Origin: Amoebophrya sp. A120
Lineage: Eukaryota > Protista > Dinoflagellata
Direction: 5' to 3'
NCBI GenBank assembly: GCA_905178155.1
Contig: CAJINV010000012.1
Location: 1,678,492 to 1,742,491 of the forward strand
Length of the DNA stretch: 64,000 bases
A program made the translations under genes and the position numbers. Positions 1,482 to 61,249 of the stretch are shown one piece after another (within the stretch, counting starts at the first letter, position 1; each line of letters opens with the position of its first letter). The notes beneath the pieces are model-generated. The model did not search any database, had not been told where the DNA came from, and saw only the letters and a program-made list of their open reading frames with translations.

Positions 1482-2742
1482 TATCCTGAGGAAAAACGTA
1501 CCCACACCAGAGTTGTAATGCAGATTTGCAAAGACAGGAACATTTGCAATGCGCATCGCCAGGAGAGGCATTTTTAGTCGCGTTTTGGAATTTGTAATGC
1601 TGTAAACAGGATGAGCAGATGGATTTCTGATGCAGCTGGCCTTGCGAACCTGCACTACACTACGGACTGCAACTTGTGATGTGTGACCCCCAAAAGTTCT
1701 AGGCTTGTGTTGCAAAATCCCCATAGCACTGGCGCAATCAAGACGCAGGCAAGAACAACGTGCTGAAGCAGAGGACAAGAGCAGATAGTAAGAATATCAA
1801 AACAAGACGACAAAGCCTTTGATCCGCGAAATTGCTGGAGTGTGAATGTCGTGGACAGCGGAAGGGGTCTCTCACATTACAGGAAACGCCCACCGCCCCC
1901 AAATAGCTTAGTGATCCGAATGATGAATCAACTCGACTACTTAATTTTTACAATCGTTTTACCAGCCGCAGGCTTGCATCTGCGGCTACTGCTACTCTGC
2001 AAACGCCCGGCGTATTTTTCAAAAAAAACATGATCTGCCTCGCTGCAACCGGGGTTAGGACGTACCTCATTCAGGGCGGGCGGTAGCTAAATGCAGACCT
2101 GTGCGGGCTTATGTTTTCTGAAGCGCGCACACAGTCACTAGCGTAACGCAATAGCTTAATCATTTTTGACCGTTTTACGAACTTCGTCGCAAAAGTCCGG
2201 GGCTGCTTCCTCCCGCAGTAAATAGAAGGGTTTAGGTGTTTAGGGTTTTCCGATTCAGAAAAAAATGAAGCTCTTCGTCGACGTGGAAAAAACTGGATCG
2301 GACGTGTGCCGCTGCTACCGGCTCGACACGTAGAAAACGAATTTCGCGCGTTGTGCGGGAGTAGCTACCCCTCCCCTACTTCGGGTTGTAGTTGCCATTG
2401 GCGTCATTGATTGCGGTCGACAATATCCTCGTCCCGATGATTTCCTTCTTTGGGTTTGTGTATGGTGAATAGGAGCTTGCTCCTGATTGGTGCCGCGGTG
2501 TCGGAGGTTTTGCAGCATTCACGCACAGACTGCATTTGTGGAAACGGAGGGGGGGTGTGGGACCCCCATCAAGTCGTCGCGGCGCGAAGCCGCAAATCCC
2601 TGGTCCTCGTTCACCATCAGAAGTGTTCGACCGGTGGGGCGCTCCACTGAAACTGAAACTGAATTTTAGAGGGGGCCTAGCAAAAAAAAAATAAAAAAAT
2701 ACCCATCTTGACTCTGGTGCGGGGATGTTTTTACTCAGGATA
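1482..2742. mobile_element. Introner family C (non-canonical intron) containing a nested ~1-kb insert
   Basis: TIR TATCCTGAG/CTCAGGATA, DR CGTCC; body is the reverse complement of 59838-60116. Confidence 0.85.
1725..2701 (+). mobile_element. A-tailed insertion nested in an introner
   Basis: Absent from sister copy 59838-60116; flanked by CCCAT duplication (1720-1724/2702-2706); ends in an A-rich tail. Confidence 0.7.
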
Positions 2743-2837
2743 CGTCCTGGCGCTCTCTCCTTTTCGAAAGCCAATCCGGTGGTACTGCTCTCCGCATACG
2801 CGAGTAGCAATATGGAAGAAGTAGAGGGCTGATTTGA

Positions 2838-3057
2838 TATAAGAGTGCACAACCCCCCTTCCCCCTCAATTGTGTGGCATTAGCAGCAATACAAACACCC
2901 GCACGCGTGGAGCCCATGCACGACAAATTTACATACGCAATGTAGTACTGTTTGAGCTTCCAGAATTTGTTATGCAAGCAGTGCCACAAGGCACCGATTC
3001 TTGGATTTGGGATTTTGCATGACAAATCAGGGGGAGGGGGAGTTGTGCGCTGTCATA
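2838..3057. mobile_element. Introner family B
   Basis: TIR TATAAGAGTGCACAAC/GTTGTGCGCTGTCATA; DR TTTGA. Confidence 0.85.
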
Positions 3058-3133
3058 TTTGAAGCAAATCGCGGCCCAAGCGGTACGGGACGCCATGAGC
3101 GTGACGCCCGCGCAACTGTTCCAGGAGCACGTC

Positions 3134-3369
3134 TATCAAATGCAAATATGTTTGGGTCTGGAAGATAGAAGTAGAACTTGTGATGCTGCATTTGGATTCC
3201 AAAGAAATCAGCATGGTGAGCAGCAAAGGGAATGTAAATTTTTGCTACGCGGAGAGTGCATTTGTCATGCGGAGCCCTCAAAAAAAGTTGTGATGCTAGG
3301 ACTTGCGTCACAGACTTCACGGGTCATGCAAAATGTGCATGACAAACCGCGACATATTTGCAATGCATA
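3134..3369. mobile_element. Introner family A2
   Basis: TAT..TGCAAATATGT TIR; DR ACGTC; removal gives EHVQTW. Confidence 0.85.
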
Positions 3370-3475
3370 ACGTCCAGACGTGGGCGGAGCTGTGGAAGTC
3401 TGGCGTAGAGATCGAGGGCGAAGAGGAAATCGAGAAGACCGCGATGGCGGGTCTCTATTGGCTGCTCCAGCACTA

Positions 3476-3735
3476 TATGGCTTGCATATATGTCTGGGTC
3501 TGGAAGAGCCAAACTTGTGATGCTGAATTTGGATGCTAACAAAATCTGTATTGCATGAGCAGCAAGAGGAGTCAAACTTGGCTACGCGGAGAGGGCATTT
3601 GTCATGCAGGATGCGCATCGATAGGCGCTCAAAAAATCTGTGATGCTATGGCATACATCAGAAACATCATGGATCATGGAAAATGTGCATAACAAACTTC
3701 TCCTCTTCCAGACCCAGACCTTTTTACATTTGATA
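3476..3735. mobile_element. Introner family A2
   Basis: GTCTGGGTCTGGAAG/CTTCCAGACCCAGAC TIR; DR CACTA. Confidence 0.85.
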
Positions 3736-4020
3736 CACTATCGGGCCGACACCTACTGGTCCAGCTCCCCCGGCGGAATTGCGACTAACAGCTACAACGG
3801 CCATGTGTTTTGGGACACGGAGCTGTGGATGTTTCCCCCGCTGCTCCTTTGGCACCCGGGGATCGCCAAGGCGGCGCTGCAGTACCGTTTGAACACGGTG
3901 CCGGGGGCGCGGGCGCGGGCGAAACTCGGGAACGACCCCTGGCGGAGTGGGGAGCGCGCGCTGCAGGGTTACAGCACGAACGGGGTCCGTTTCAGCTGGG
4001 AATCTGCCATCACGGGGAAC

Positions 4021-4166
4021 TATGCATTGCAAAAGTATCGTACTCGTATTGCAGTCATGCGTGATCTTAAGGTCAATCAGCATTACAACCTTTATCTCTC
4101 ATGCTGAGGAAATTTGTAATGCATTTATATATACGAGTACGATTTACGATACTTTTGCAATTCATA
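4021..4166. mobile_element. Introner family A
   Basis: TATGCATTGCAAAAGTATCGTA TIR; DR GGAAC. Confidence 0.85.
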
Positions 4167-4229
4167 GGAACGAGCAGACACCGCCGGGGTTCGATACGGG
4201 CGCGGCGGAAATCCACAACACAGGCGATG

Positions 4230-4419
4230 TATGCATTGCAAATGTAAGTATCGTAGCTACTCGTACTGATTGCAGATACGCATGACAAATCTACTCTTCC
4301 GTTTCAAGCGAAAAAATCACCATGACATGACAAATTCCGTTCGTCATGCTATAGACAATTTGTGTTGCAATTTTACCTACGGGTGCCTGCTGGTACGGTC
4401 CTTTTTGCAAAAATGCATA
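4230..4419. mobile_element. Introner family A (diverged)
   Basis: TATGCATT/AATGCATA ends; DR CGATG/CGTTG; removal gives GDVAF. Confidence 0.8.
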
Positions 4420-4478
4420 CGTTGTCGCTTTCGAAGCGGATCAATACTACAAGTTGACGCGCGACTTGGACTTCTTGA

Positions 4479-4697
4479 TATAAAAGTGCGCAACTCCCCC
4501 TCCTCCTCATTTGTATAGCATGAACGGCAATACAAGCATCAGCAAGAATACCGGTTTTGCATGACAAATTCGCACTGGATTAAATAGTGCTTTTTCGGCT
4601 TCCAGGATTTGTCACGCAAACAGTGCTACAAGGCAGCAGCTGGATTTGGGATTTTTGCATTACAAATGAGGAGGAGGGGGAGTTGTGAAGTTTCATA
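4479..4697. mobile_element. Introner family B
   Basis: CAACTCCCCCTCCTCCTCATTTG TIR; DR CTTGA. Confidence 0.85.
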
Positions 4698-5115
4698 CTT
4701 GAACAGTGGCGGCTACAAGGATCTGATCGAGGGCACGGGGCAATTTTGGTCCGAGTATGTCCGATGGGAGGGCGCCGCCGCTCGGGTGCTGAACGTCGTC
4801 CCGCCCGACGAGGAGGCGGGGTACCAGGATGATTCGATATTTACCAATGCCATTGCGGAAGAAAACATGCGGCTGGCAGTGTACTACATGGACCTCCATG
4901 ACAGGAGAGGAAAGTTCCGACTTGATCCCGCCCCAGACAGTGCGACGTTCAGGGAAAAGTTTGAGAGAACCATCGCCGGGCTGCAGAAGACGTATCCCAC
5001 GCTGTACGACAAAAACCGCGACGCCCACTACGAATACGCCGGCTAACAGTGGGGTAGCAGGGTGAAGCAAGCGGACGTCGTGTTGCTCGGGTTTCCCTTG
5101 ACCAAACCGATGGAT

Positions 5116-5304
5116 TATCCTGCGCAAAACCAAAAGTTATATCGTACTAGTACAAAGACAAACTCAAACCGCATGAGCAAGTTCTTCAGCATGAGAAATG
5201 GAAATTTGCAATTTGGATTTGACTTAAGATAGGAGATTTCCAATGCATGACTGCATTTAATAATAGTGCCTACCACGACTGCGATACAACTTTCGCAATG
5301 CATA
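5116..5304. mobile_element. Introner family A (diverged)
   Basis: TAT...ATA ends; DR TGGAT/TGGAA; frame restored on removal. Confidence 0.75.
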
Positions 5305-5433
5305 TGGAAACGCGCTACACGTTTCGGAACGACTTACTTGAGGCTGAAAAGGTCTATAACCCGGAGGCACCCTGCATGACGCACTCCATCCAGATGATCG
5401 GGTGGCTGCAGTTGAAGATGCGGAAAAAGTGCG

Positions 5434-5644
5434 TATGACGGTGCACAACTCCCCCTCCCCCTCATTTGTATAGCATTAAGGGCAATACAAGCATCAGCAA
5501 GATTGCAGGTCTTGCATGACAAATTTGCACTGGATTGTAGTGCTATTTGGGCTGCCAGAACTTGTCATGCAAACAGTGCTAAGAGGCACAGGGTCGATTG
5601 GGTATTTTGCATGACAAATGAGGCGGGAGTTGTGCACTATCATA
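5434..5644. mobile_element. Introner family B
   Basis: TATGACGGTGCACAACTCCC TIR; DR GTGCG. Confidence 0.85.
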
Positions 5645-5718
5645 GTGCGCGGCCCAAATCGAAAAGTCTTTTGAAAACGCTTACGGGCCGTTCCGCGTCT
5701 GGACGGAGTACCCCCGTG

Positions 5719-5879
5719 TATCCTGCGCAAAAGTATCGTACTCGTACTAGTAATTGCATTCATGCATTACAAATTATCTCTTTCTCAAGGCAAACCAGCA
5801 TTACAAATCGAATTTGTAATGCTGTGCTAATTTGTAATGCATTTTTACGAGTACGAATACGATACTTTTGCAATCCATA
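5719..5879. mobile_element. Introner family A
   Basis: GCAAAAGTATCGTA TIR; DR CCGTG; removal gives WTEYPRGGATNF. Confidence 0.85.
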
Positions 5880-6381
5880 CCGTGGGGGCGCCACCAACTT
5901 CATCACGGGTACCGGCGGCTTCTTGCAAACGGTGAGTTTCGGCCTGGGCGGATTGCGGATCCGAGAAAACGGTCTGCTGCTGGAGCCCGGGCTGGTGCGG
6001 AACATGAAGCGGGTGGTGTTGCGGGGAATTTTCTTCCTGAAATGTCGGTGGCGGATTGAGTTCAGCGATGCGGAATTTTTCATCACGGTCATGGAATGCG
6101 GTGCGGATCAGGACCAAGCTGTGATACCTTCCGACGCGGACTTCTATTCCACAAACGACAGGGCGAAGACCAGCACACCGCTTGGCTTAGTCGCCCGGTG
6201 GAACGAGATGGAATCGAATTCGAATACGGATGAGGCGTCTGGAAGTCCTCGTCGTGTGAAGATCTATCAAAAGCAGCACTTTTTCGAACTCCGAAGGGAC
6301 CTGCGGCTAAACAATTTTCCAAACGAGAACCAACGGAGGAATTACCGCCAGGTCTTACTCCAGCACGAACAAGATGCCCCG

Positions 6382-6625
6382 TATGGCGTTCTCACACGTT
6401 ACATTCTCAACTGCTCCATGAATTTTTCATGAAGGAATGGCAAACGTGAAAGGGGAGACCTAGCGCGTCTTGCATGACAGATTTAGCACAGATTCTCAGC
6501 CTGTTTGGCTCTTCGAGAATTTGTCATGCGAAGGAGCTTGTTGAAGTTGATCATGTAGCTATTGACGGCAATTTCGCATGACAAATCGTGCCACAGTTGA
6601 GAATGGAACATTTGAGAGTCCCATA
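6382..6625. mobile_element. Introner family D
   Basis: TATGG..CTCACACGTTACATTCTCAAC TIR; DR CCCCG. Confidence 0.8.
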
Positions 6626-6703
6626 CCCCGGCGTGGCCGGATGTAGGAGGGATTGCAGAAAAGAAAATCTGCACTCTCGAGGAAATAGACACGGACTACT
6701 TTG

Positions 6704-6864
6704 TATGAACTGCAAAAGTATCGCACTCGTAATAATTGCAGTCATGCATTAGAGATCTTTTTCTTGAGGCTAATCCGCATGACAAATTTTATTTCTCATG
6801 CTGAGGAAATGTAATGCATTTTTTTATAGATACGCATATGAATGCGATACTTTTGCAGTTCATA
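6704..6864. mobile_element. Introner family A
   Basis: Perfect TATGAACTGCAAAAGTATCGCA TIR; DR CTTTG. Confidence 0.9.
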
Positions 6865-8351
6865 CTTTGGCGGTGACATGGGCATCTGGGAAACGGCCGC
6901 GACCGCAGAGGAGTGTCGGCAAATCTGCGAACAAAACGCCGAATGCGAGCTGTTCACGTTTTTGAGAGGCCAGGTGAGAAACAATTGCCTGTTCAAACGC
7001 GGGCTCGGAGCGGAAAAGAGGTATAATAGCGACACGGCCAGTGGGCGTTGCGTGTTTGAAAAGGTGGATTACGAACTGGTGCAGGAGCCACCGGCGGCAG
7101 CGGAGGGTTTTTCTCCAAGTAGTGCAAGCAGCAATGGAAATAATGTTCCGGGACTAGAAGCCTCCGCGGCAGGTTTTTTGGAAAAGAGAAAAATGGAAGT
7201 AGATCGTGTTGTTGAAAATACGGGCGAGCGGATGGCTTCGCAGAGTGGTGATGATGATGAAAAGCGCAAAGAAATAGGACTAGCAGAAGATGCAATCAAG
7301 TTAGAGGACGGAAATAGTGCGCACGTCGAGGAGAAAAGGAATCAAAGCGAACAGGACCGGATGCTTCCCGCGGTGGGCGCAGCTAGAAGAATAAAAAGCC
7401 GTCCTCCGCTAAACAATCTTCCCTCGGCCGTGCAAGTAGCAGACATGACCGCGCCTTCATATCAAGCAGAAATTTGAAGAAGTGATATGATTTTGATTTT
7501 AGAAGTAAAGTGTTATGCATAACAAGAACTAAGAAAACACAACCTGGTCGTCGGCTATGTCGTGGGATCAACGTTGTTCGGGTGCGTTGAGAACTTCGAG
7601 AGCTGCACCAAGTAAGAACCAGATCTACAACTCCTCACCCTTGTGGATTGATTTAGCACTACTGACATAATCACTCAAGTCAACCTTGTGCGCCTCGTAC
7701 TTGATGAGTTCGCTGCAGCTCGAACAACAGCTCTGTAGACTTCGGACGAGAGAAGAGTGAAGTCGAGGTAAAGGGATTCAGACTCTTCGACAAAACCCTG
7801 CGAGTAAGAGGAAAACCGTAAATTACCGTATCGACTCTTGTTTTTTGTCATTTTCATACAAATAAGCTTTTCGTCGCACCCGCCGAGGACTGCAGCGAAA
7901 TAATAAAAGTTGTAAAGCTACCAAGACTACATATACGGAGCGACAAACTCACGTTCATACAAGATGTTTGTTGCCGCGCGTCAACATACAAACATCACCA
8001 GGACGCGTCCAGGTTGATGTGTGGCTCCCTCAAATAGCTGGCGCGGAGGCGGGGAGCACGAAGTAGAATCTCTTCAACACCACGTCCCTGCTGCAAGAGG
8101 GTCGTCCTCGTGATCGGAGCGGCTGCAGCGGCTGCATTCTTGCACGACAGCCAAAGCGGCCGGAGCGGCTGCACTCTTGCACGACACACACATCAAAGAA
8201 AATATCTACTACAACCACCTCAGTACAACTGCGCCGGTTGTCGCCGACAAAGATTCTCCGAGAAAGAATCTCAATCTGTACAACAGTCGACCACGCGACG
8301 TCCTCACATCTCCCTCGGACCATGACGGGTGGACTTCTTGGGTCGAGGAAG

Positions 8352-11300
8352 ATGGACAAGGACAACAAAAGGCCACTGCCGGTGACCCCTGCCCAGCACT
8401 CCCGCGGAACAAGCGGCGGAACGACCTGGGGTCGGAGCACCGCATCCACATCCTCCGGAACCAGAAGTCGCCCTAGAAGCTCGACCACTACTTCCACTTC
8501 ATGCTGCGGCCGCTGTTGGTGGTCCAGAAAGAACTACATCGTCAAGAACACCAAGACGGCTCGGCTCCTTTCCTCTTCTATCACCCTGCAGGTGTTCTTT
8601 CTCCTGCAGTCGTTCTATCTGGTTCAGCATGCGGATCTTGTACACGGAAGACGACGCATGCTGCGTCACGAGAACGACCGGGGGAAAGCAAAAGAGGAAA
8701 TTGGGTACGAGTTCCGCGTATCCTGTGCACAAGCATCGTACTCGTAGTAATCGCAGTTATGCATAACAAATCGCCTCCCTAAGCTAAAACAGCATGACAA
8801 ATTCCATTCGTCATGCTAAGGAAATTTGGAAATGCGATTTATACTTCTAGTACGATGCTTTTGTATTTCATACCACGAGAAGAGCGACCTCTTCCCGCTA
8901 GGCAAGGTGGTTGCAGGTTTGTGGTCTTGGGTTTTCGGCTCGGGTACTTCTACGGTGGAGGAAATGTACGGTTTTAATGTTTCTACGAACGGCACGGGCA
9001 CCAACGCGACCCCAAGCAACAGCACGGCGCCGAATGATACAAGTACGAACATTTCTTCCAACGACACGACAGGGCCCATGGTTGGCGCTACAGCGAGCGG
9101 GGACTACATAGCGGCTGTTGGCGCCAACAATTTGGCAACTAGTCCGACGTACGCTGGTGCTACTACCAATGCCGGTCATCTTCCGAAGAACGCGGGCATC
9201 TTCACTGCTGGGAACATGACGAGTGGAGGTCGGACCAATGGTACCATGATGCCTCTCGCCGCGAGCAGCAGTACAAACATCACAACCCCGGCGGTTTGGG
9301 GCGAGCAAGATGCCATTCGTCGTGCGACGAACAATAGTACTGGCGCCACTTCCAATTGGACCACAACGTCGAATCATACCGCCATCAATTGGACCACCAC
9401 GATCAATTGCACATCCTCTACAGCGGCAGTGTCAGGTATTTTCAGTGAAATTCTGTACCATTTTTTATTTTTTCGACTCTCAGGTTGCTGCACTGCTACT
9501 GGTCAGCACGTCTTGATGTTTGACGCGTTTGTTTTTATTTTTTCAGTGCGCGGTGCTGGCATTTGCATTTTGATTTTTTCGTTGCAAATATGAATCGGTA
9601 TGTTCCGAACTGAGGCACTAGATCAAAACTGTTATTGAAGAAATCCTACGTTCTTGAACAGGGCCGGATCCGGCCCCGCCGCAAGACGATGGCTATCTGT
9701 CCTGGGTTGGCGTAAATCTGGTAAAAACGAGCAGCAACACGAGCGTCACACATGATCAACATCCGGAAGATATGAAGATTCTCACGACGGACACCACTGC
9801 AACACCATTACCACTTGTCGTGACCTCCGGGGAACAGCAAATGCGGGAGGAAGCTGCGAACACAACAATGGTGGTGACGCTGAACAAACTACACCGTGAC
9901 CACGAGCAGTCGTTCACAACGCCAACGAATTCAACTTCCCCAAACACGAGTGCTGCTGCGACAGACGAGACGGTGGGAAAATCAGCGACGAAACGGCACG
10001 CGTCTCTGTTGCCCATCATGACAAAAGAAGTTGAAGATCCTGAAGTTGAAGTTCCTGTGGTACTACGAGATGCTTCTGTTTTAAGCAGCGAAGTAGAAGA
10101 GACACCTGCCTCCACGCAAGAAAACTCGGGTCTGGATGAGGACCACTCTGTCAGTGAAGACATCGACAAACCGAGGCCGGTCGGGGACGAATCTTCGCAT
10201 TATTTGTCCACGCAGGCAAAACTGTTCGAAACATCTTCTGTCTTCCCCAAAAATCTCCCTGATGTACCAAATTCCACGTCGTCCAGTGCTTCAGTGGACG
10301 AATTTCGCTTCATTTCGCCGCACCATGTTGTCTCACAACAAGATGAGGAATCGATTTACTCCTTCCTCGAGTTGAGCCAGGAACTAAATCATCACAACGT
10401 GGTTGCTGCAGAAGAAGATGCTGCGGTAGCAGGACGACAGGAGGGTGTGAAGACCGGTCTTCCACCTGCTGATGCTTCTGTTCGTGCTGGTTTAGACTAC
10501 GTTCCTAGCAAAAAACAAAAATCGAAAACGAGCGCAGCTTCCAAACTTCCACTGCCGTTACATGACGAATCGCCAGCGACCGCGGGAAATGCAGAAGATG
10601 AACACCCGATCGAAGATCCAGAAGAGTTTGACGCCACCTCTGCGCTGTCACAAAGCGGGGCGGAAATTTTCGCGGGGGAGAAGCACGTCGAACAAGGAGG
10701 ACACTCTGGTGAGCGGTCGGAGTACCATACAACTGGAGCAACAGCATCCGAAAATGGAGCTTCCGACAGCGTCGCAGGCGCGGCTGCACATGATCAGTCG
10801 CAAGAAGATGAAGCCGGGCAGAACGTCGTCGGGGTGGAAAGTATTTCGTCTCTGGACGAGCATGCCGAGCTTCCTCCTAGAAGTGACGGTCATGCTGGTG
10901 AAGCTGCAGAAGGGAAGAACGCGGAATCGGACGGTAGTGCTGTGATTGAAGAACCGAAGGACCACGACCACGACGACGAGAAAACTGGCTTTATTACCCC
11001 TGCTTCGGAAGGGAAAGAAGAAACTACCGTGCCCGGCGGAGAACGGGTGGAACGAGGTGCGGCGGAGAAGATGCAGGAGCAAACGAAAGGCGAAGTGGTG
11101 GTGGAGCGTAGCAGCTCGTCCGCAGTTGAGGTGAAACCTGCAGCACTTAGTGTGGCGCCTCCTCCCGGCGGTCCTGGCATATCGAGTCTCGTCTGGGGTG
11201 TGGGGGGTGGTTCTGCTCCCCGGCCTGCTTATGCCGAGTCTCGGGGTGAAGCACTTCCACTTTCTCCGACAACCGGCGGTGCTGCTGCGCTTGGCGTAGT

Positions 11301-14300: not shown

Positions 14301-15804
14301 AGCCATTTTTGCAGTTGATAGTCCCTTAGCTACTCTCCTGAAACGAGTCTCCCTCCTTCGTCGCCGTCGTCCAGCGCCGCTGATTCGCCTTCATCGTCGT
14401 CAGGAGGAACGAGTTCGACTTCAACCTTGACTCTCACAGATAACGATAAGCAGGTGCTGGACTCAAGAGTGGGTCCTTTCCTTGAAGATGAAGGCGGGGC
14501 CGCAACCGATCCCGCCGAGGGCGGCAGCTATTCAGCTGCACAACTGGGAACTGCCGGCGCCACTGACGCAACCAAGAACACGATGATTGCACCAGCAGGG
14601 GGATTTTCGCCCCGCGGGAATGAACAAGATGCCGCACGACTTGCAGTCAACACTGGCCTCGGACCGAAGGGGCCCACGACTTCCTCCGTTCTTGCAACTA
14701 CAGCAAGTAGCAGCGGCCCTGTCGCGCAACTAGAAGATCATCAATCTGGGTCCTCTTCTGGTGTAGTGCTGCCGGACCCGCTGCCCGGTAGAAGGAGTGC
14801 CCCAACTACAAAGGAGCTGCGCCACGACAGTTTGTCGCAGACGTCGTCGCCCGCAACACCGGCGCAACTCGGTGCAGAGCATGCCAATGTGCAGCATGCG
14901 GCGGCTGCGCCCCGTAGTAGCGAACTAGGACGAGCTTCGGAGTGGCAAAAACGGCAGATCATGATCGAGAACACCCAACAGGATTACAACACGAAGCTCG
15001 GAAGAATCGACGCAGCAAGCACTGTATGCATTGCAAATATGTCTGGGTCTGGAAAAGTGCATTTGTTTTTCATGCATCTACTTCTGCCACACCCACAGGT
15101 GGGTGGTCTGGATCTGAAATACACGCGAAGATACGCTTACAGGTTTCGGATGAGAAATTCGTATATTTGTACAGCAAAAAGTGGGCGCCAGCGTTTCTTG
15201 GCAGTCGTCATACAATAGTACAGATGTCTTTGCCTCCTGCTCAGTATGAGTTAGCGCCGCAATTTGGAAGTGGAACAAAGCTTCCCGACCCAAACACATT
15301 TGCAATGCAGACACCGAAGATAGCCCCCCGGCAGGAGCAGGACGACAACCCCCCGTCGCCGACCGTGGCACGACGAGGAACCAAGAAAACCCCGATGACT
15401 CCCACCTACCCGGACAGCAGACGGCCACTGCTACGGAGCAGCAGCCTGTGGGAGACCTGACGCGGCACCCGCACGAGGACGACGGGGACCCCACGAAACT
15501 GGACACGCAGTCAGCCACAACTGCGCTGGACACGACCGTCGTCCCGGACACGAGCAAACAAGGCAAGATCTTCGGACCAGTAGGAATCGGGCCGCCCCAC
15601 GGGGAGGACATCAATGCTGCACCTCTTCCCGCTGATCTTGTAGCACTCGGACGACCAAATGAACAATCATCTTCCGCAAAAGCTACAGCAACAACGACTG
15701 CGGCCGCGAGGTGGACCCCGACTGCTTCAATGCCAGATGAACAGGAGGAATCCGCAGGGACCGACGGCGATCAGGAAGGGAGACCCAACGTCCTCGGGTC
15801 GTGA
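8352..15804 (+). CDS. Large S/T/N-rich low-complexity, probably secreted or membrane protein of unknown function (paralog A); multi-exon
   Basis: Long open exons (8878-~9436, ~9663-11700, 12898-14059, 14326-15024, 15317-15804); hydrophobic segment LQVFFLLQSFYLV; many N-x-T sequons; blocks shared with paralog B (EKSDLFPLGKVVAGLWSW, QQD(D)E..IYSFLEL, PPQD..LSWVG). Internal exon structure at 11700-12600 unresolved. Confidence 0.7.
8719..8872. mobile_element. Introner family A
   Basis: TAT...ATA, AGCATCGTACT TIR; DR CCGCG/CCACG. Confidence 0.8.
12623..12892. mobile_element. Introner family A2
   Basis: TGTCTGGGTCTGGAA TIR; DR TGTGG/TCCGG. Confidence 0.8.
14060..14320. mobile_element. Introner family A2
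   Basis: TATCAATTGCAAA/TTTGCAGTTGATA; DR GCCCC/GTCCC; joins the 12718 and 14427 ORFs in frame. Confidence 0.85.
15025..15311. mobile_element. Introner family A2
   Basis: TATGCATTGCAAAT TIR (right end AGA); DR CACTG/CACCG; joins the 14427 and 15448 ORFs. Confidence 0.8.
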
Positions 15805-52900: not shown

Positions 52901-54845
52901 ATTTTGATTTTCAGGTAAGAAAATACTTTTCAATTCTCGAATGCGAATGTATTTATTTTTGTGTTAGCTATTTGGTTATGTCAAAAATGGCGGTTTGAAT
53001 AAGCTAGTTAAGAAAGAGTTCTGAAGACAAACGATCAGCTTCCAGCAGACGAAGCTTGGTAGATGGGGTTGTCGCCCTCGTCTGGCCCCAGGTGGGGCCA
53101 GAGGGCGACAACCCACACTACCACTGTTCGTCTGCTGGAAGCTGAACGATTGTCTTCAGAAATCTCTCTTCTTAACTAGCTAGCTTACCATGCGAGCTTA
53201 ACTTAATCATGCGAGCTGCTTCGGCAGTTTTTACCGTCCTCTTGCTATCACAATCACTCCCTTTGGCTGCAGCGGATGTCGTGCAGTCGATCGTGGACCA
53301 TAATGCAGAGGCTTTCAGCCCCGAAACCAATGCGGCTGGCGGAACGGCGAAAGGTATCTACTTATATTGCTTTTTTAACAACGGGCTCATTTGGTGCTTG
53401 CGCCTCGAGGTCTCTTGGTGCTTGCACCTCGGGGTTTAGGGTCGGAACGTTCCCAGCACCGCTGGAAGCACTGAACCTGAAGGGCGTGCACGCCTGGAAG
53501 GATCCGAGCATGGCGCTTTACTAGCGCCTTTTCAACGTTTACCTTCATCCTCCTTTTTGTTTCTGCTGTTTTCCTTTTCTCGGGCCCTACTGGCACCAAG
53601 CAGTTTCTTTCTGCGGCTCCCGCCCTTCCTGCTGTCGGTTTTGTCCTATTTTAGTTTTTTTCATATGTGCACATGACGATGTGTACATGATCATGCGTAC
53701 CGCGGCCTTCTCCTTTTTCTGCACGGGCAGCTTCCCTCCAACACATCTCCCCTCCACGTCTCCGTCACGTCCCGGATGCCGACCCGGTCCAGCAGCCGAC
53801 GCAGGGGTTTTAGGGTTTAGGCTTTTAGGGTTCTCCTATTTTGATCTTAACTAGCTAGCTTACCGCCAATAGCCAATATCATAAATCATCTGCTTCAAAA
53901 CTCAACATTCAAAACCAGATACAACAGGTTCGGGAGTGCCGCGAAAGTCCAACGAAATTTTAATTTTGATGGTCAAAAATTTTGAAAATTTGAATTTTGT
54001 GATTGTGATGGTGTTTTTTTCTTCGATAGAGTGCGATACTTTTGCAATGCATATGCCACGACCGGCGCAACAAGGTGCTGGTGGTTCCACCACTGTAGTT
54101 CCCCCAAACCGACCAGTGACTTTGACCACAACCAATCTTCCGGATGACCAAGAACACAATTCCTCCTCGTGGAGCTACACCCAGGTCAGGCGAGGCTTGT
54201 TGAACCGGCTAGGATTTAGCCGTGGCAATGTCAATGCTGCTCAGGTAGAGGATGAAGCTAGAAGTACGGCTAGCAGTACAACTCGGAACGAGCGGAGACG
54301 AGCAGGCAGTTCGCCGGAAGTAGATGGACCTGCTCCCTCTCATCGCGAACTCATTATGCTACTCAACTTGAACCACGGCACTGCTGCGGCGGGGACAGGA
54401 GTTGCACCAAGCGACAGCCCGAGAAACTACTACCAAAATGAAAATGTTTTTGACTCTGCATCTTCTGCTGCTTCTCCGCACCCACTGCAGCCGATGCCAA
54501 TTCCGGTCCGGGTCCGGTTGGAACATGCCTTGGTTCCGGATGACGTGTTATGCTCTGCAAAAATGTGGCGCTCGTAGTACTTACTCGTTGCAATTCTGCA
54601 TTGCAAATCGTATTCAGATAGGAAAATCAGCAAGACAAACTCCGATTGGTTTTTGAAAAAGTTTGTCATGCGATGTTTACTAGCTGCGATATTTTTGCAA
54701 TGCATACGTACGAGCCCTGATCCAGGAAATTCATTCCGATGACGTGCGGTATCTCTGGCTCGCAGTGGAGGAAGCGCCAATGGTGTCGGTCGGATGCCTG
54801 GCGTTTTTGACGGTCCTACTAGAAAAAGCGTGGAGCCCGATGTAG
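46946..54845 (+). CDS. Large low-complexity RING-H2 finger protein (putative E3 ligase); 5 introners; start uncertain
   Basis: CPICLEP..CASRPVAHVMHASC..CPVCR at ~50869-51138; exons join in frame across five introners to TAG at 54843-54845. Confidence 0.75.
49757..49909. mobile_element. Introner family A
   Basis: TGCAAAAGTATCG TIR; DR TGCAA; joins the 955-aa and 717-aa ORFs. Confidence 0.9.
51858..52061. mobile_element. Introner family E
   Basis: TATCCAAGAAAAAAACTGT TIR; DR ATTGC. Confidence 0.85.
52138..52385. mobile_element. Introner family B
   Basis: TATGACAGTGCAC TIR; DR GCTGG. Confidence 0.85.
52708..54053. mobile_element. Introner family A with nested 1.2-kb TIR element
   Basis: TGCAAAAGTATCG TIR; DR TGCCA. 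Confidence 0.85.
52827..54028. mobile_element. 1.2-kb non-autonomous TIR element (TAT...ATA, 5-bp TSD)
   Basis: ~50-bp TIR TATCGAAGAAAAAAACACCATCAC...; TSD GAGTG; internal 180-bp hairpin. Confidence 0.85.
54549..54706. mobile_element. Introner (family A-like)
   Basis: TATGC..TGCAAAAAT TIR; DR CGTGT/CGTAC. Confidence 0.75.
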
Positions 54846-56172
54846 GAAAATGTGACTGAGAAAACTTCTGGTCTCATGAAAACAACGACCCGGAAAGAAC
54901 TCAAACTCTGTCTGTACTAAGGTGATACATATGTTTGTTGACATAGCCTTCTGATGATGCTTCATCATGCATGGCATATTGATCTGCTCCGAGCCGGAAA
55001 ATGATTTTCGTGAGGACGAGGATGTTTTTCCATAGCATACGCCATTCGAATGGTTTACCAACCCACCTGCCGGCGCGGTGTGAAGGAACAAGCACGCGCG
55101 ATGCAACCGCGTGAAGTGCTGCCGGTTGTACGAAAATAGGAACATTGTTTCATGGGGAATAAAAGGGGAGTTGTCATTGAGAGTAGTTTCTATCAAGAAT
55201 AAATGCGCAATAATGTTGCTGCGACCACTACAAGAACTTGCTGTTTCAAACATGACACATAACACATATTGTGTAGACATAGATTTCAATTTCTGGCGTT
55301 TTGATCGACTTTGACAGTTTTTAAAAGAGTTAGCGTACGAGATCAACAACGCGATTGGATGAAGCATGGAAAATACTTAAAATGTACGACTGAAGTAGAG
55401 ATACCAGTCTCAATTGCAATTGCAAATCGAAATCTGGATACATAGGTAGCACGACCAGTAAGACCACGAGGCTATCGAATGATTTAGATTTTGTTTTGTG
55501 TCGTTCCTGCCATCATGCTAGTTTTTTGATACGTCCGCAAAAAATATTTCTGGTGCTGCAAAAAGGAAAACGCTGGCACTGCTTCAGAATGGTTAATACA
55601 GTATGTAAAACCTCCACTGGTTCTCCTTCCTATCCCCGCGTCCTCTTCACAATATCTCCATAAGCTTGGCGCTCTGGGAAAAGGATGTAACTGACCAGTC
55701 TGAATGTCCATCATCTGGATGATCGATTGATAGATTTACAAATGCATCAATTCAATATCCCCCAGCCCTGCATCGGGCTTGCATAAAAGTGCACGTGGTC
55801 GTGTATATCGCGTTGGATCTTTCGTTTCTTCAGCATAGGCTGGCAGGAGTGTTTCAAAAGGTTTTTGCTCCTATTAGGACGGATGTAGTCGTGTTCCAAT
55901 TCTACCTAATAGAGCGTCTCTGTTTCTTCAAAAACGAGGGAGTTGTACTAGTGAGCCACGGAAAAAGACTATCGAGTGGGACAGATAAATCAAAATTTTT
56001 GCCGCTTCTTCCAAGCGAGCCATTTCTTTGAGTGGGCGATGAAGTTAGTATAGTGGTCCTACCAAGCAGATAAACTCCTTCAAAACGACATCAGAGCTGT
56101 ATCTTGTCGAAAAAGTAGAATCCATCCGCTGCTGAAGCTAGAGCTACTCGTAACAGAAAACTACCTCACAAG

Positions 56173-59100
56173 ATGTTTTGCGGTGGTGCCTCCGGTCCAT
56201 ATACGACGGATTTGCCGCAGCCAAAGCCGTGTCGCGAAGGCTGGAAGCAGACGGTCGATCGCCAGCCGCCGTATGGTGTGTACCAACCGGGGACGGCAAA
56301 CAAGGACCTGGGGGTACGGAAATGGAAAAACATAGAACAGAAGCCGTCATGTGTTGTCATGCAGGTGTCTGCAGCAGTGTTACGTTTTGTCATGCAGGGA
56401 CTGCATTTGATTTCGATGCTTCTTGACAAGACTTTTCACTCCATACTCTCTCGGTCCCATCCTGTACAACAGCGCGTACAAGGACACATGGAAGTTGCCG
56501 ACAGGTATCAGATAGATCATGAACTACCCGATCTTCACACTGAAAAGCTGTCATGCGGAAACAGCATGTTGCAAAGATCTTGTGATCTTCATGTTGAAGA
56601 TCCACTAGCTGCAAAATTAAGTAAGGTAACTAGCATCACATCGAAATCACTATATCAGGCCCCGTCTCCGGCCACAAGAATATCATCGAGTGCTGGCACA
56701 ACGCCTGCCTGGACTTATGAACTGCAAAAGCATCGTACTAGTATAAGTCGCATGACAAATTTCCACAGCATGAGAAATAAAATTTGTAATGCGGATTTAA
56801 CTTCAGAGAGAAACTTGTAATGCATGACTGCGATTACTACGAGTACGATACTTTTGCAATGCATAGGACGGCAAGGACGGCAACGCCATGGGGTATATGC
56901 AGTGCAAATATGTCTAGGTTATTTGGAAGGTTGCGCACTTGTCAAGCTTAGTCCGGATCGTATAAAAATTTGTGTTGCAGGATTGCCAAATGTTGTTCAC
57001 TTTTGACCAAGTTGGGAGAGCTTTTCTCATGCAGGATAGGCATGATCACAGAGGTCTCGCAGAGTCTGTCATGCTAGGTCCTGCATTGCAGCCTGTCATG
57101 GGTTATGGACAACCTGCATGACAAGTCTCGCAACCTGCAGACCCAGACATATTTGCATTTGATAGGCTACCGCAAGCTGATCGACATCGTGTACGAAAAG
57201 GACCCGATATGCGAAGAAAAAAGTGTTACCGTTACACATTGTGTTGCAGGCCAAGCAAGACAGACAATCTCTGTCATGCCGGATATGCATCATGGGAGCC
57301 TAGTTTGTTCATAGATACGCGTTTTCCCTTGTTATGATCTCTGCATTGCAAGCTTTTCCTCTCATGCAGAGAAATAAATCTGTGTTGCTAAATTGTTGAC
57401 AACAAATGTGTAATTGTAAAACACTTTCTTCCTTGGATACCCAAAGGACGGCAAAGAATACGAAAAGCTGCACCTCGCGAACGAGCTCACCTACGTCACC
57501 TACACGCAGTTGCTCGACCGTGTGAAATATCAAGTGCAAAAGTATCGCACTCGTATAAATGCATTACAAATTTTCCCAGCATGAGAAATGAAATTTGTAA
57601 TGCGGATTTCCCTTAACGCCTAAATTTGTAATGCATAACTGCAATTGGTACGAGTGCGATACTTTTGCACAGGACATGAAGGCCTTCACCATGGGTTTGA
57701 AGGACTTCACTGGTGAGGACTTCTTCGCGAACAAAAACTCCCGCGGCGTCATTTTATGAGAGTGCACAACCCCCCCTCACGACCCTCATTTCTAATGCAA
57801 AATACCGAACCCACCTCTTGCCTCTAAGCACTGTACGCATGACAAGTTTTGGACGCCCAATCAGGACTACAATCCATGTCCGGATTTATTGTCATGCAAA
57901 AGCTACATTCATCCTCATCGTGGCATTCGCATTCCTTCTGTTGCTGCTCATGCTATACAAATGCGGGGGACGGGGAGTTGTGCACTGTCATACACTTTCG
58001 CGGACACGCAGATGGACTGGATGTGCTCCGTATGGATTGCAAAACTGTCTGGGTCTGGAAGATTGCAACTTGTCATGGTAAATCTGAAGCATGCAAAAAT
58101 CTGTGTTGCATGAGTGCCAAAAGCTGCAAACTTTTGAACGAGTTGGAAGGAAGTTTCTCATGCAGGATAGGCATGGCAGAGACCTCGCAGAGTCTGTCAT
58201 GCTAAGTCCCGCATTCCAGACCTCATGGGTCATGGAAAATCTGCATGGCAAGTCCGCAGCTTACTTTCCAGACCCAGACACTTTTATTTTTGATACTCCG
58301 CGCTCGGGTTCTTTTCCCAGGCACTCCCGATCGTGACGGTTTACTCGACTTTGGGGGAGGAGGGACTGAAGTTCGCGCTGACGCAAACCTCCGCGGAATT
58401 CGTCGTCACCGACGCGAAACTGGCCAAGGTGCTGGCCAAGGTGCTGCCCTCGGTGAAATCCACGATGAAGTACGTGGTTTTACTCGGCGACGCGAAGAAG
58501 TACTGCAGTGCGGAGGTCATTATCAACTGCAAATATGTCCGGGTCTGAAAACTTGGCATGCATGTCAGTGAAAAATAAGCACACTGCAATGCACCGCCAA
58601 GCATGACAGATTTTTTCGTGGCTCCTCTGTGTTGTGGATTCTGCATGAGATGAAGCTGCGTTTTTGGATGGCAGACGCAAGGAGCTGCTCTACTTCGTGG
58701 CCCCGCAATGCAGATCTCGGAGTCATGCCAGACTAGCATGACACTCTTGCTCTTCTAGACCCTGACATATTGGCAGTTGATAGTCATGAAGACGTTATCC
58801 GAAAACGTCAAAGTCGGAATTTTCAACGAACTGGTAGAGATCGGTGCGCCAAAGATCATATGCAAATTGCAAAAGTATCGTACTAGTAGGAATTATTGCA
58901 TATACAAATTTTATTCTCAGAAATAACACAAATGGAATTTGTGATACTGATTCAGCTACTAAAGTAGATTTGTCATGCGAGGCTGCAATTTTTACTACGA
59001 GTATCTGATACTGTTGCAGTGCATAGATCAGCGAATGGGCGATTAAACCGGTGAGTTTGGAGGAAACGGCAGTGATCATGTACACCTCGGGGACCACCGG

Positions 59101-61182
59101 GAATCCGAAGGGCGTCGTCATCTCGCACGGCAATGTCGCTGCTCTAATTGCGGCGGGGGAGCAGGTCTTCGCGGGGATGGTGGAAGCGGGGGATACGGTG
59201 CTGGCGTACTTGCCCTTGGCGCACATCATGGAGATCGCGAGTAGAATGGAAGTGATGGCTTCACCTGCTATGCTCGGCATGCATAATTTGCATATTACAA
59301 TACTGGCAGATCATGTTCCTTTACTTCTGTCCCAATAAGTCTGGTGTACTATAAATGCGAGAAACGCATCAAATAAACCAAAAGGTGAAGTGACCTGTAT
59401 GTCGACCGGAGTGACGCTCTGCTACGCGAACCCGCACACATTATCCGCGACCGGTGTGAAGCTGAAAATACCGGAATCGAAGGGAGACTTCGAGGTTTCG
59501 AGGCCGCACAGCCTGCTGTTTGCGCCAGCGGTGTTGGAAAAAGCGTACAACGGGTTGAACTTGCTCTTTGCGAGTGGGATTAAGAAGAAGATTTTCGACG
59601 GTATACATAGTGTAGTTAGATAGTCGTGTAGTTTGTAATGCGACAACACACGACCATGGATGTTGCGCGTCTGATTTAAGTATTTCCTTTTCAGTTTTCT
59701 GTCATGCATACCGCACTAGCTACAAATCACTGCATATTACCGTTGTGGATGATTTAGATTCGCATTACAACGAACAGCCGCCGTCCGCAACGGGAAAGCG
59801 AAGTTCCAAGCCTCCGGCGTGACCCGCGACGAGTGCTTATCCTAATGAAAAACGTCCCCACCCCAGAGTCAAGATGGGGATTTTGCAACACAAACGTTGG
59901 AGTTTTGGGAGCCACGCATGACAAATTGCTAGCTGTAGTGTAGTGCAGTTTAGAAAGGGAAGTCGCATTACAAATCCATCTGCTTATCCTGTTTACAGCA
60001 TTACAAGTTCCAAAACACGATCGGAATTGCCTATCATGGGGATGCGCATTACAAATGCTCTTGCGCTTGCAGATCTGCATGACAACTCTGGGGTGGGGAC
60101 GTTTTTACATAGGATAGTGCTACTTGGGTACCACCGGCTGCTTTCCCAACATTGTCTGCAAGAAGATCCGGGCCCGGTTCGGCGGCCGACTGAAGGCGGT
60201 GTTGACCGGTTCTGCCCCGTTATCGAAGGACTTGATGTGCTTTTTCCAGACGATTTTGGGGATTCCGGTGCGACAGGGATACGGATTGACGGAAACGTGT
60301 GCGGTGTCGTGCATCGCCTTCTGGTGCGACAACACGCCCGCGAGCGTCGGGCCGCCAGCGATGGCGTCGGTATAATGATGGTGTGAGTTGTTGTAATGCA
60401 GAATCAGAATCTCGGTCTGTGTTTGTCATGCGGGAATGAGACTAGGTATTGAAGGCGTGTCATACTCAACTACATGCAAAATAAGGTCATCCGGCTCCGT
60501 GACTGGGAGGAGGGCAACTACAAAACGTCCGACGAGCAGGACCCAAATATCGGCAAACCGCGGGGGGAGGTGTTAATTGGCGGTCCGATGGTTACGCAGG
60601 GGTACTTCATCAAAAACCCATCCGATCCGGACGAAGAGGACCAGGCCTTGATGTATGACTCGCTCAAACGTTACAATCTCAAACGTTACAATAGAGTCTG
60701 GAATTTGTGTTGCATGATGAGCATGACAGACTCGCACAGCGTTCCACCTTTTGCAATAGAAACTTTGCCAGATTGTAGGGGGGTTTGGGGCTCAGGAACT
60801 TGTCATGCGCAATCCTATGAGAGTTGATGGCGAGAGGACTATGCACTCTTGCGTCACAGATTTCCATACTCTATTCGTAACGTTTGAGATTGCAACACCT
60901 GAGCGGGTTACATGATGCAGAAAAACAAGGAGGAATACCTGGAGGTCGACGGATACCGGTGGTTATCGTGTGCAAAAGCATCGTACTCGTACTAATCGCA
61001 GTCATGCAAAACAAATTTCATTTTCAAGCTAAATCAGCATGACAAATTCCGTTGGTCATGCTGAGCTAATTTGTGTTGCAATACTACGAGTACGATACTT
61101 TTGCAGTTCATAGTGGTTTTGCTCCGGCGATATTGGCCAGATCTCCCAGCACGGGACCTTGCAAATCGTGGACAGGAAGAAG
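56173..61182 (+). CDS. Long-chain acyl-CoA synthetase (AMP-binding family); 3' end lies beyond the window
   Basis: Spliced motifs VIFADTQMDWM, VTVYSTLGEEG, IMYTSGTTGNPKGV, YLPLAHIME, FGGRLKAVLTGSAPLS, QGYGLTET, PRGEVLIGGP, WFCSGDIG, IVDRKK; 11 introners plus GT-AG introns (~56314-56658, 59241-59384, 59601-59778, 60370-60486, from 61183). Confidence 0.92.
56716..56865. mobile_element. Introner family A
   Basis: TIR; DR GGACT/GGACG; body antisense to 6704-6864. Confidence 0.85.
56896..57164. mobile_element. Introner family A2
   Basis: TGCAAATATGTCT TIR; DR GGGTA/GGCTA. Confidence 0.85.
57208..57439. mobile_element. Introner family E
   Basis: TAT..AAAGTGTT..TTACACATT TIR; DR CCCGA/CCCAA. Confidence 0.8.
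57528..57676. mobile_element. Introner family A
   Basis: GTGCAAAAGTATCGCACTCGTA TIR (right end ACA); DR TGAAA/TGAAG. Confidence 0.85.
57755..57992. mobile_element. Introner family B
   Basis: TATGA.AGTGCACAAC TIR; DR CATTT/CACTT. Confidence 0.85.
58031..58295. mobile_element. Introner family A2
   Basis: TGTCTGGGTCTGGAA TIR; DR CTCCG. Confidence 0.85.
58521..58782. mobile_element. Introner family A2
   Basis: TATCAACTGC.AATATGTC TIR; DR GTCAT. Confidence 0.85.
58859..59025. mobile_element. Introner family A
   Basis: TATGCA..TGCAA TIR; DR GATCA. Confidence 0.85.
59838..60116. mobile_element. Introner family C
   Basis: TATCCTA..AAAAACGTCCCCACCCCAGAGT TIR; DR GTGCT. Confidence 0.9.
60654..60912. 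mobile_element. Introner family D
   Basis: CAATCTCAAACGTTAC IR (right end ACA); DR TGATG. Confidence 0.8.
60964..61112. mobile_element. Introner family A
   Basis: TGCAAAAG.ATCGTACTCGTA TIR; DR GTGGT; removal gives YRWFCSGDIG. Confidence 0.9.
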
Positions 61183-61249
61183 GTACTTACTCAATCGATA
61201 CTACAGATTTTTTGAATTTTGCCTGGTTGTAGTACACGCGATGGCGCAA

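What the first reader, a model, noticed from the sequence alone, without database searches (positions are those of the whole stretch)
1482..60116. Introners work in either orientation
All host genes are + strand, yet same-family bodies occur in both orientations: family C 1482 vs 59838, family A 6704 vs 56716, family B 4479/5434 vs 52138/57755. A directional branch point or polypyrimidine tract cannot easily be required, which points to recognition of the symmetric TIR stem.
Basis: partly seen in the sequence, partly recalled or inferred. Interest (0 to 1): 0.7.

Follow-up and report, generated by a model that had tools for sequence, protein, structure and literature searches.

The report
Two-way introners with fixed cut register
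Small DNA transposons in the parasitic dinoflagellate Amoebophrya sit inside genes in both directions about equally often and are removed from transcripts either way, likely at a fixed spacing from their mirror-image ends instead of at the usual GT-AG signals; the elements themselves are already published.

Summary
Observation confirmed. The window is Amoebophrya sp. A120, and the repeats are its published TAT...ATA introner elements with 5-bp target duplications (PMC7789003). Same-family bodies lie in both orientations, even within one gene. In a second assembly, orientation against the predicted host strand is 98:87 (family A 61:56). Contigs from probable RNA runs and three transcript-guided NCBI proteins show precise removal in both orientations. 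Elements 1482, 5434 and 6704 have no direct RNA test.

New: every informative junction fits one register, with the 5' cut 1 nt before TAT and the 3' cut 4 nt after ATA. Only one junction excludes the neighbouring register.

No polypyrimidine tract or strong body branch point exists, and an inner inverted-repeat (TIR) helix is predicted in 182 of 186. But TIR positions 4-8 do not covary, terminal pairs tolerate mismatches, and U+2 never varies (0 of 190). A TIR also offers the same linear signal in either orientation, so symmetry does not prove stem recognition. Two-way introners are known in Polarella and Aureococcus.

The parts
1482..2742 (+). Family C introner, reference orientation, TSD CGTCC; body interrupted after 1723 by a ~970-nt insertion
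   Evidence: flanking exons align in frame to homolog P0122; no RNA test
59838..60116 (-). Family C introner, reverse orientation, TSD GTGCT, in + strand acyl-CoA synthetase gene
   Evidence: RNA-guess contigs start at the TSD edge
4021..4166 (+). Family A, forward
   Evidence: removed in P0121
4230..4419 (+). Family A, forward; imperfect TSD CGATG/CGTTG gives register k 3-7; inner helix shifted 3 nt
5116..5304 (-). Family A, reverse, in the GH65 gene
   Evidence: frame continuous with homolog P0123
5719..5879 (+). Family A, forward
6704..6864 (+). Family A, forward (reference copy)
   Evidence: no RNA test
8719..8872 (+). Family A, forward; TSD CCGCG/CCACG gives k 3-5
   Evidence: P0224
49757..49909 (-). 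Family A, reverse
   Evidence: X4 record 8 stops aligning at 49751, the TSD edge, and runs on 163 nt
52708..54053 (+). Family A, forward, holding a nested TAT...ATA element 52827-54028 (TSD GAGTG)
   Evidence: 52703-54053 skipped in one joint in X4 record 10
54549..54706 (+). Family A, forward; TSD CGTGT/CGTAC pins the intron to 54548-54710 (k=4)
56716..56865 (-). Family A, reverse; TSD GGACT/GGACG gives k 0-4
   Evidence: P0001
57528..57676 (-). Family A, reverse; 3' end ACA instead of ATA, still removed precisely
58859..59025 (-). Family A, reverse; inner helix shifted 2 nt
60964..61112 (+). Family A, forward, in the same gene as three reverse copies
2838..3057 (+). Family B, forward
4479..4697 (+). 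Family B, forward
   Evidence: removed in P0121
5434..5644 (+). Family B, forward
   Evidence: no RNA test
6382..6625 (+). Distant family B relative, forward
52138..52385 (-). Family B, reverse
   Evidence: 72-nt record gap in X1 and X4 equals precise removal
57755..57992 (-). Family B, reverse; TSD CATTT/CACTT gives k 3-6
   Evidence: P0001
3134..3369 (+). Family D, forward
3476..3735 (+). Family D, forward
12623..12892 (+). Family D, forward; k 3 or more
36748..37168 (+). Family D, forward
56896..57164 (+). Family D, forward
58031..58295 (+). Family D, forward
14060..14320 (-). D-like subfamily (D2), weakly reverse to D; k 2 or more
58521..58782 (-). D-like subfamily (D2), reverse to D (69 vs 25 against 56896)
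51858..52061 (+). Family E
57208..57439 (-). Family E, opposite to 51858 (53 vs 29)
11672..12173 (.). Unassigned introner; k 3-5
12210..12538 (.). Unassigned introner; k 4 or less
15025..15311 (.). D-type TIR, body unassigned; 3' end AGA
60654..60912 (.). Family F introner, TSD TGATG, 3' end ACA
54842..55043 (+). Decayed intron, G-TAG ... ATA-CGCC; ends inferred from contig pieces
56314..56449 (+). Decayed intron, G-TAC ... ATA-CTCT; TSD lost; k 3 or 4
56505..56658 (+). Introner whose k=4 ends coincide with GT-AG (G-TAT ... ATA-TCAG)
26710..26812 (-). Old TAT...ATA element in a minus-strand gene
217..7477 (+). Host: GH65 glycoside hydrolase + PAN domain gene, 12 elements; carries a frameshift and an in-frame TAA
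8322..15804 (+). Host: 1807-aa unnamed protein (P0224)
46946..55085 (+). Host: large protein with a RING-like Cys/His pattern (read by eye, no Pfam hit)
56173..61182 (+). Host: long-chain acyl-CoA synthetase, residues 1-603 of P0001, 16 introns

Best explanation
These are Amoebophrya A120 TIR introners that lie in genes in either direction and are removed precisely in both, likely always with the 5' cut 1 nt before TAT and the 3' cut 4 nt after ATA, probably by a relaxed spliceosome that would read U+2/A+3 in whichever TIR lies upstream while the predicted inner TIR helix would hold the intron ends together. Steps: (1) Shown: MITE anatomy (TIR, 5-bp TSD), about 50:50 orientation against the predicted host strand, and precise loss of element plus one TSD copy from transcript contigs and transcript-guided proteins. 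(2) Shown for a few junctions, inferred for the rest: the fixed register N/UAU ... AUA-NNNN/, which removes exactly element + 5 nt whatever the target sequence. (3) Predicted: a helix at TIR positions 9-16 in both orientations. (4) Inferred: spliceosomal catalysis, with G+1 and the 3' AG both dispensed with and U+2 kept. The helix would stand in for the reportedly missing U1 and for the absent pyrimidine tract. Orientation is then irrelevant because signal and helix both come from the TIRs and the body is passive. The branch nucleotide was not located.
For: Orientation: 98:87 among 185 family-assigned elements, p=0.46; the strand caller was 97% right at the margin used. Removal: X4 record 10 measures 1396 nt from 51339 to 54547, equal to the precise-excision model and against 3209 genomic; it spans E, B-reverse and A-forward elements. 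The k=4 model reproduces P0001 residues 1-603 letter for letter over 16 introns, 12 of them non-GT-AG. Contig lengths imply 5' UTRs of 70 and 80 nt if all 13 upstream introns are removed. Register: 10 informative junctions all allow k=4 (8719, 11672: 3-5; 12210, 56716: 4 or less; 12623, 4230, 57755: 3 or more; 14060: 2 or more; 56314: 3-4; 54549: 4 only); rough joint chance 0.0008 for a given k. All nine predominant A120 site types in Table S4 of PMC7789003 are NT-xx. Only 25 of 224 elements offer G[TCA]-AG in any precise register. U+2 is unchanged in 190 of 190 with the triplets left free, and both +3 changes are A to G. TSD mismatches are synonymous in 24 of 50 against 28.6% expected (p=0.003; forward 12 of 23, reverse 8 of 16). 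Most spliceosomal proteins and U2, U4, U5, U6 are reported in A120.
Against: Only 54549 (an A-forward copy, two samples) excludes k=3; no reverse-oriented copy is pinned to a single register. The 54842 intron was inferred from piece arithmetic, not from a listed joint. Runs X1 and X4 are only guessed to be RNA and are contigs, so they give no strand, level or efficiency. The annotated proteins rest on BLAT alignments and may share data with those runs; aligner bias could also shape Table S4. The U+2 asymmetry is not significant in the unbiased set (exact p=0.075). The codon test of register in the second assembly was inconclusive, with position 2 going 2:8 against k=4. PMC7789003 calls splice sites variable relative to the hairpin (Fig. 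3 legend). No evidence here touches catalysis (lariat or not). Arms show no covariation, so selection on the helix is not shown.
Confidence: 0.55

Rival explanations
1. Pure stem recognition. A non-spliceosomal nuclease/ligase, or an altered machine, measures from the end of the TIR duplex, cutting 1 nt 5' and 4 nt 3' of it, as proposed for Euglena nonconventional introns.
For: Inner helix predicted in 182 of 186 in both orientations; no pyrimidine tract or strong branch motif. G+1 and AG are at background level (68 and 16 of 224). U1 was not detected in A120. Euglena's tested code N3-CDG ... CH'G-N5-6 has a similar 2-3 nt longer 3' overhang. A(-5) to G and A+3 to G changes keep G-U wobble pairs.
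Against: The cut tracks TAT/ATA rather than the stable helix when they are offset (58859, 4230). The terminal triplet is predicted paired in only 126 of 186. All three terminal pairs occur as true mismatches with no compensation. Positions 4-8 pair at chance within family A.
Confidence: 0.25
2. Linear signals only. The TIRs carry a 5' site (N/UAU) and a branch A inside the 3' TIR with a fixed-distance 3' site, and pairing is a by-product of transposon structure.
For: No arm covariation; U+2 invariant; decayed introns 56314 and 54842 keep the register with little stem left.
Against: Both candidate branch adenosines vary (A-7 in 2, A-5 in 3 of 190). A three-letter signal is too weak to define ends without help. 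The inner helix is nearly universal.
Confidence: 0.13
3. A conventional degenerate branch point in the body works in both orientations because the internal 12-mer (TTTGTMATGCA / TGCATKACAAA) is repeated on both strands.
For: 79 hits in the window on both strands; on both strands in 99 of 186 bodies; TRAY in the last 60 nt in 75 of 98 and 69 of 88.
Against: No fixed distance was tested or seen. The motif resembles TIR positions 3-14, so it is more simply a transposase-binding repeat (inference). It does not explain a 3' site without AG.
Confidence: 0.05
4. One orientation is not spliced, and such copies sit in dead genes.
For: The GH65 host has a frameshift and an in-frame TAA; its 5' and 3' elements lack RNA tests.
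Against: Both orientations are removed within P0001 and within X4 record 10. Retention would break the frame in 95 of 97 forward and 86 of 86 reverse copies, yet the ratio stays near 50:50.
Confidence: 0.02

Closest known systems
Amoebophrya A120 introner elements (Farhat et al. 2021, PMC7789003)
   Same: Same genome and elements: IR starting TAT + 7 nt + AAA, 3-5 nt direct repeats, non-canonical ends, hairpin proposed to join the exon boundaries, U1 not found.
   Different: Element orientation is not discussed in the passages and sections read; all 4 main-text uses of 'orientation' concern genes. The paper calls the splice sites variable relative to the hairpin, whereas here one register fits all informative junctions. 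Figures (Fig. 3 logos, S19-S25) could not be seen and may show part of this.
Polarella glacialis introner-like elements and Aureococcus anophagefferens introners (bioRxiv 10.1101/2020.10.14.339549, passages; Huff et al. 2016 not held, cited through that text)
   Same: DNA-transposon introns with TIR and TSD; several classes create introns in either orientation.
   Different: Those use GT/GC/GA-AG sites taken from the TIR or TSD and are biased to one orientation; here there is no G+1 or AG need and no bias (98:87).
Euglena nonconventional introns (PMC12501133 abstract, introduction and passages; PMC11282704 section 6)
   Same: TIR-bounded, MITE-like, no pyrimidine tract, cuts at fixed offsets outside a terminal paired triplet, 3' overhang longer than 5'.
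   Different: Motif CDG/CH'G at +4 and N5-6, against TAT at +2 and N4 here; pairing tested genetically and circles reported there, neither tested here; a purine is needed at the 3' exon start there.
Fritillaria borealis non-canonical introns (PMC11282704 section 6; PMC13326754 passages)
   Same: MITE-derived non-GT-AG introns handled by a modified U2 spliceosome.
   Different: Preferred AG-AC and AG-AT ends, with U1 conserved.

Membership tests
Amoebophrya A120 introner element | Located in the A120 genome | tested here: met
   Three exons are 100% identical to NCBI A120 proteins
Amoebophrya A120 introner element | IR of 8-20 nt starting TAT, then about 7 variable nt and an A run | tested here: met
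Amoebophrya A120 introner element | 3-5 nt direct repeat at the boundaries | tested here: met
   5-bp TSD; perfect in 226 of 309 raw calls in the second assembly
Amoebophrya A120 introner element | Repeated families | tested here: met
Amoebophrya A120 introner element | Removed from transcripts with non-canonical ends | tested here: met
   not directly for 1482, 5434, 6704
Non-autonomous TIR DNA transposon (MITE) | TIR, constant-length TSD, short non-coding body, either orientation | tested here: met
Non-autonomous TIR DNA transposon (MITE) | Cognate transposase and superfamily | not testable with these tools
   No whole genome held; families are listed as TIR DNA, unknown, in the 2 rows seen of the PMC12130899 dataset
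Aureococcus/Polarella-type two-way introner | G[TCA]-AG sites from the TIR or TSD in each orientation | tested here: not met
   25 of 224 have such a pair in any precise register, 3 of 224 at k=4
U2 spliceosomal intron | G+1 and 3' AG | tested here: not met
   GT 68 and AG 16 of 224 at k=4; 12 of 16 acyl-CoA synthetase introns are non-GT-AG
U2 spliceosomal intron | U+2 and purine +3 | tested here: met
   190 of 190, 16 of 16; also expected from the transposon end itself
U2 spliceosomal intron | Branch point and polypyrimidine tract | tested here: inconclusive
   No tract and no strong motif; weak TRAY common
U2 spliceosomal intron | Lariat formation | not testable with these tools
   Only contigs covered the locus
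Euglena nonconventional intron | N3-CDG ... CH'G-N5-6 signature | tested here: not met
   N-TAT ... ATA-N4 here
Euglena nonconventional intron | Terminal base pairing required | tested here: inconclusive
   Helix predicted, no covariation, mismatches tolerated

The most novel reading that the evidence does not exclude
Amoebophrya A120 runs a fully orientation-blind splicing code, N/UAU ... AUA-NNNN/. In it a transposon's TIR helix replaces U1 and U2AF for intron definition, a spliceosome that has dropped the G+1 and AG requirements keeps only U+2/A+3, and the 3' site is set by a ruler 4 nt past the TIR. Any insertion of these MITEs, at any sequence and in either direction, becomes a perfect intron.
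Probability: 0.4. Interest if true: 0.8.

Novelty: new variant of a known kind. Interest (0 to 1): 0.5.

Why it matters
How Amoebophrya removes tens of thousands of non-GT-AG introns without a detectable U1 is an open question (PMC7789003). A single fixed register with unbiased orientation turns the apparently variable splice sites into one rule. That rule explains why insertion is harmless at any target and in either direction, allows re-annotation of the genome, and separates spliceosomal from Euglena-like stem cutting by a simple lariat test. The orientation observation alone is modest, because two-way introners are known and the hairpin idea is already in print.

Tried and rejected
1) TSD position 1 looked invariant in the window (0 of 21 mismatches). 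It was not reproduced in the second assembly (14, 10, 8, 8, 10 by position), so rejected as chance.
2) A branch adenosine fixed at -5: all 16 acyl-CoA synthetase introns have it, but it varies in 3 of 190. Not supported.
3) Drift towards G+1: G at TSD position 5 is 75 of 238, like other positions. Rejected for young copies.
4) Codon-likelihood test of register: positions 1, 4 and 5 agree with k=4 (11:3, 6:2, 2:8), position 2 disagrees (2:8), position 3 is 4:4. Inconclusive.
5) Arm covariation at positions 15-20 in the window (p<0.001) vanished within family A of the larger set (757 vs 760 permuted). Attributed to subfamily structure.
6) ORF restoration after removing element + TSD is automatic for any insertion and was not counted as proof of splicing.
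7) No RNA holder was on record as RNA. Raw-read run X8 touched 5 of 30 bins at 90-95% likeness and was uninformative. The joints table was swamped by DNA-like run X5.
8) No whole genome and no further sequence for the second assembly. Huff et al. 2016 was not held. No earlier scan notes.
9) A branch-point consensus for this genome's canonical introns could not be built; too few lie in the window.
Full report
Identity. Three exons match NCBI proteins of Amoebophrya sp. A120 at 100%. A search for terminal inverted repeats (TIRs) with flanking duplications found 38 elements of about 100-500 nt, two longer through nested insertions, that begin TAT, end ATA and carry a 5-bp target-site duplication (TSD). 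This matches the published A120 introner elements (PMC7789003; abstract, sections 10, 11, 12, 16, 25, supplement part 2 and Table S4 rows read; figures not seen).

Observation. With TIRs trimmed, the named pairs align far better in reverse than forward: C 24/260, A 32/102, B 24-29/88-139, against a shuffled maximum of 26 (alignments). Hosts are + strand. Family A is 8 forward and 5 reverse in the window, with both directions inside three single genes. Two corrections: element 1482 runs to 2742, and a minus-strand block near 20-31 kb holds an old element.

Is orientation neutral? Its ten longest matches to the window were element-sized. Of 309 elements, 17 duplicates were dropped, 54 for uncertain host strand, and 14 for weak TSDs or internal-motif pairs, leaving 224; 185 were assigned to window families. 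Host strand came from a codon model blind to the element, 97% right at the margin used (79 of 129 test windows called). Orientation was A 61:56, B 5:5, C 6:6, D 15:12, D2 6:3, E 4:4, F 1:1; total 98:87, p=0.46. Retention would break the frame in 95 of 97 and 86 of 86. TSD mismatches are synonymous in 24 of 50 against 28.6% expected (forward 12 of 23, p=0.015; reverse 8 of 16, p=0.058), which suggests hosts stay under selection after insertion. One arm of many family A copies was fixed by the search pattern; this does not depend on host direction.

Are both orientations removed? Runs X1 and X4 are contigs, guessed to be RNA. X4 record 10 joins 51339-51851, 52386-52702, 54054-54547 and 55044-55811. 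Its 1396 nt up to 54547 equal the precise-excision model, against 3209 genomic, across E, B-reverse and A-forward copies, one of them 1346 nt with a nested element. X1 gives the same 72-nt gap. Records stop or start at the TSD edge of A-reverse 49757 and C-reverse 59838. The transcript-guided protein P0001 lacks all ten catalogued elements of the acyl-CoA synthetase gene (A reverse x3, A forward, B reverse, C reverse, D forward x2, D2, E). P0121 lacks five forward A, B and D copies, and P0224 lacks six elements. These models come from BLAT-aligned transcripts and may not be independent of the runs. Elements 1482, 5434 and 6704 rest only on frame continuity with homologs, and their host carries a frameshift and a TAA. 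Efficiency by orientation was not measured.

Register. With k the number of TSD letters kept from the upstream copy, imperfect TSDs bound the cut: 8719 and 11672 allow 3-5; 12210 and 56716 allow 4 or less; 12623, 4230 and 57755 allow 3 or more; 14060 allows 2 or more; the decayed 56314 allows 3-4; 54549 allows 4 only, in both samples, and 5 would give a stop. Three further imperfect TSDs were synonymous and uninformative (56896, 57208, 57528), as was 15025; 5116 lies outside the annotated protein. The decayed intron 54842-55043 also ends 4 nt after ATA. One rule, N/TAT ... ATA-NNNN/, rebuilds P0001 residues 1-603 exactly. At 52138 a GT...ATAG pair is available, but using it would add 3 nt, which the 72-nt gap excludes. 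All nine top A120 site types in Table S4 start NT, though aligner preference may contribute. Against: only one junction excludes k=3, and the codon test was mixed.

Stem or sequence? An inner helix (TIR positions 9-16) is predicted in 182 of 186 in both orientations, the terminal triplet in 126 of 186. There is no pyrimidine tract, TACTAAC is absent, CTRAY is rare and TRAY is common. Family A positions 4-8 pair 221 of 545, as for permuted arms, with no covariation elsewhere. With triplets left free, 16 of 190 elements vary: +2 none, +3 two (A to G), +4 six, -7 two, -6 three, -5 three (exact p=0.075), with no compensatory change. Copies whose inner helix is offset 2-3 nt are still cut relative to TAT/ATA. 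So the helix probably brings the ends together while the cut is read from the terminal letters. From recall, not from a call: in the spliceosome U+2 contacts the U6 ACAGAGA box and G+1 pairs with G-1, so joint loss of G+1 and AG with U+2 kept is what a relaxed spliceosome would show.

Comparison. Two-way introners are reported for Polarella and Aureococcus, with G[TCA]-AG ends and an orientation bias (10.1101/2020.10.14.339549, passages). Euglena has a tested offset code with paired triplets (PMC12501133). Five searches, passages of PMC9860276, PMC12130899, PMC11282704 and PMC13326754 and 12 of 14 supplements of PMC12130899 gave no statement of orientation ratio or fixed register for Amoebophrya. 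The unseen figures of PMC7789003, the two unsearched files and subscription papers could hold one.

Verdict. Real, spliced, known elements. The unbiased orientation is well supported and the fixed register moderately supported; both look unreported. Stem recognition is plausible but unproven. Interest 0.5.

Noticed in passing
window 2820-2837 and 5044-5046: The GH65 gene has a frameshift just before element 2838 and an in-frame TAA where a homolog has an aromatic residue. The NCBI model P0121 covers only the part between them. Pseudogene or assembly error.
   Followed up: partly
window 52827-54028: A 1202-nt TAT...ATA element with its own TSD (GAGTG) is nested in family A element 52708 and holds a further hairpin (53010-53170). 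The whole 1351 nt is skipped in one joint.
   Followed up: partly
window 8719 and 36748: Paralogous genes carry different families (A and D) inserted 2 nt apart at the same codon, and share an older intron (9436 and 37990) with diverged 3' ends.
   Followed up: partly
window 56505-56658, 59601-59777, 60370-60485: GT-AG introns that start G-TAT; 56505 keeps ATA exactly 4 nt before its AG. They look like introners that became canonical.
   Followed up: partly
window 61183-64000: The next acyl-CoA synthetase intron runs past the window end and holds a 408-aa ORF (61216-62442) with no Pfam hit. The DNA-like run shows variant copies. Possibly a retroelement fragment (by eye).
   Followed up: no
window-wide (79 hits): An internal motif TTTGTMATGCA / TGCATKACAAA is shared by all families, on both strands, and resembles TIR positions 3-14; a candidate transposase-binding repeat.
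   Followed up: partly
window 20200-31000: Minus-strand gene block with several decayed introner-like introns; no Pfam hits for the four ORFs tested.
   Followed up: partly
window 33800-35820 and 17550-17950: Large nested inverted and 351-nt direct repeats, next to an N gap at 17161-17549.
   Followed up: no
PMC7789003 Table S4: Strain A25 top splice sites are all TT-xx and its IR starts TTA, so it too keeps U+2 and A+3.
   Followed up: no
L001-L143: A second assembly shares families A-F and holds at least six further small families, four of them in both orientations.
   Followed up: partly
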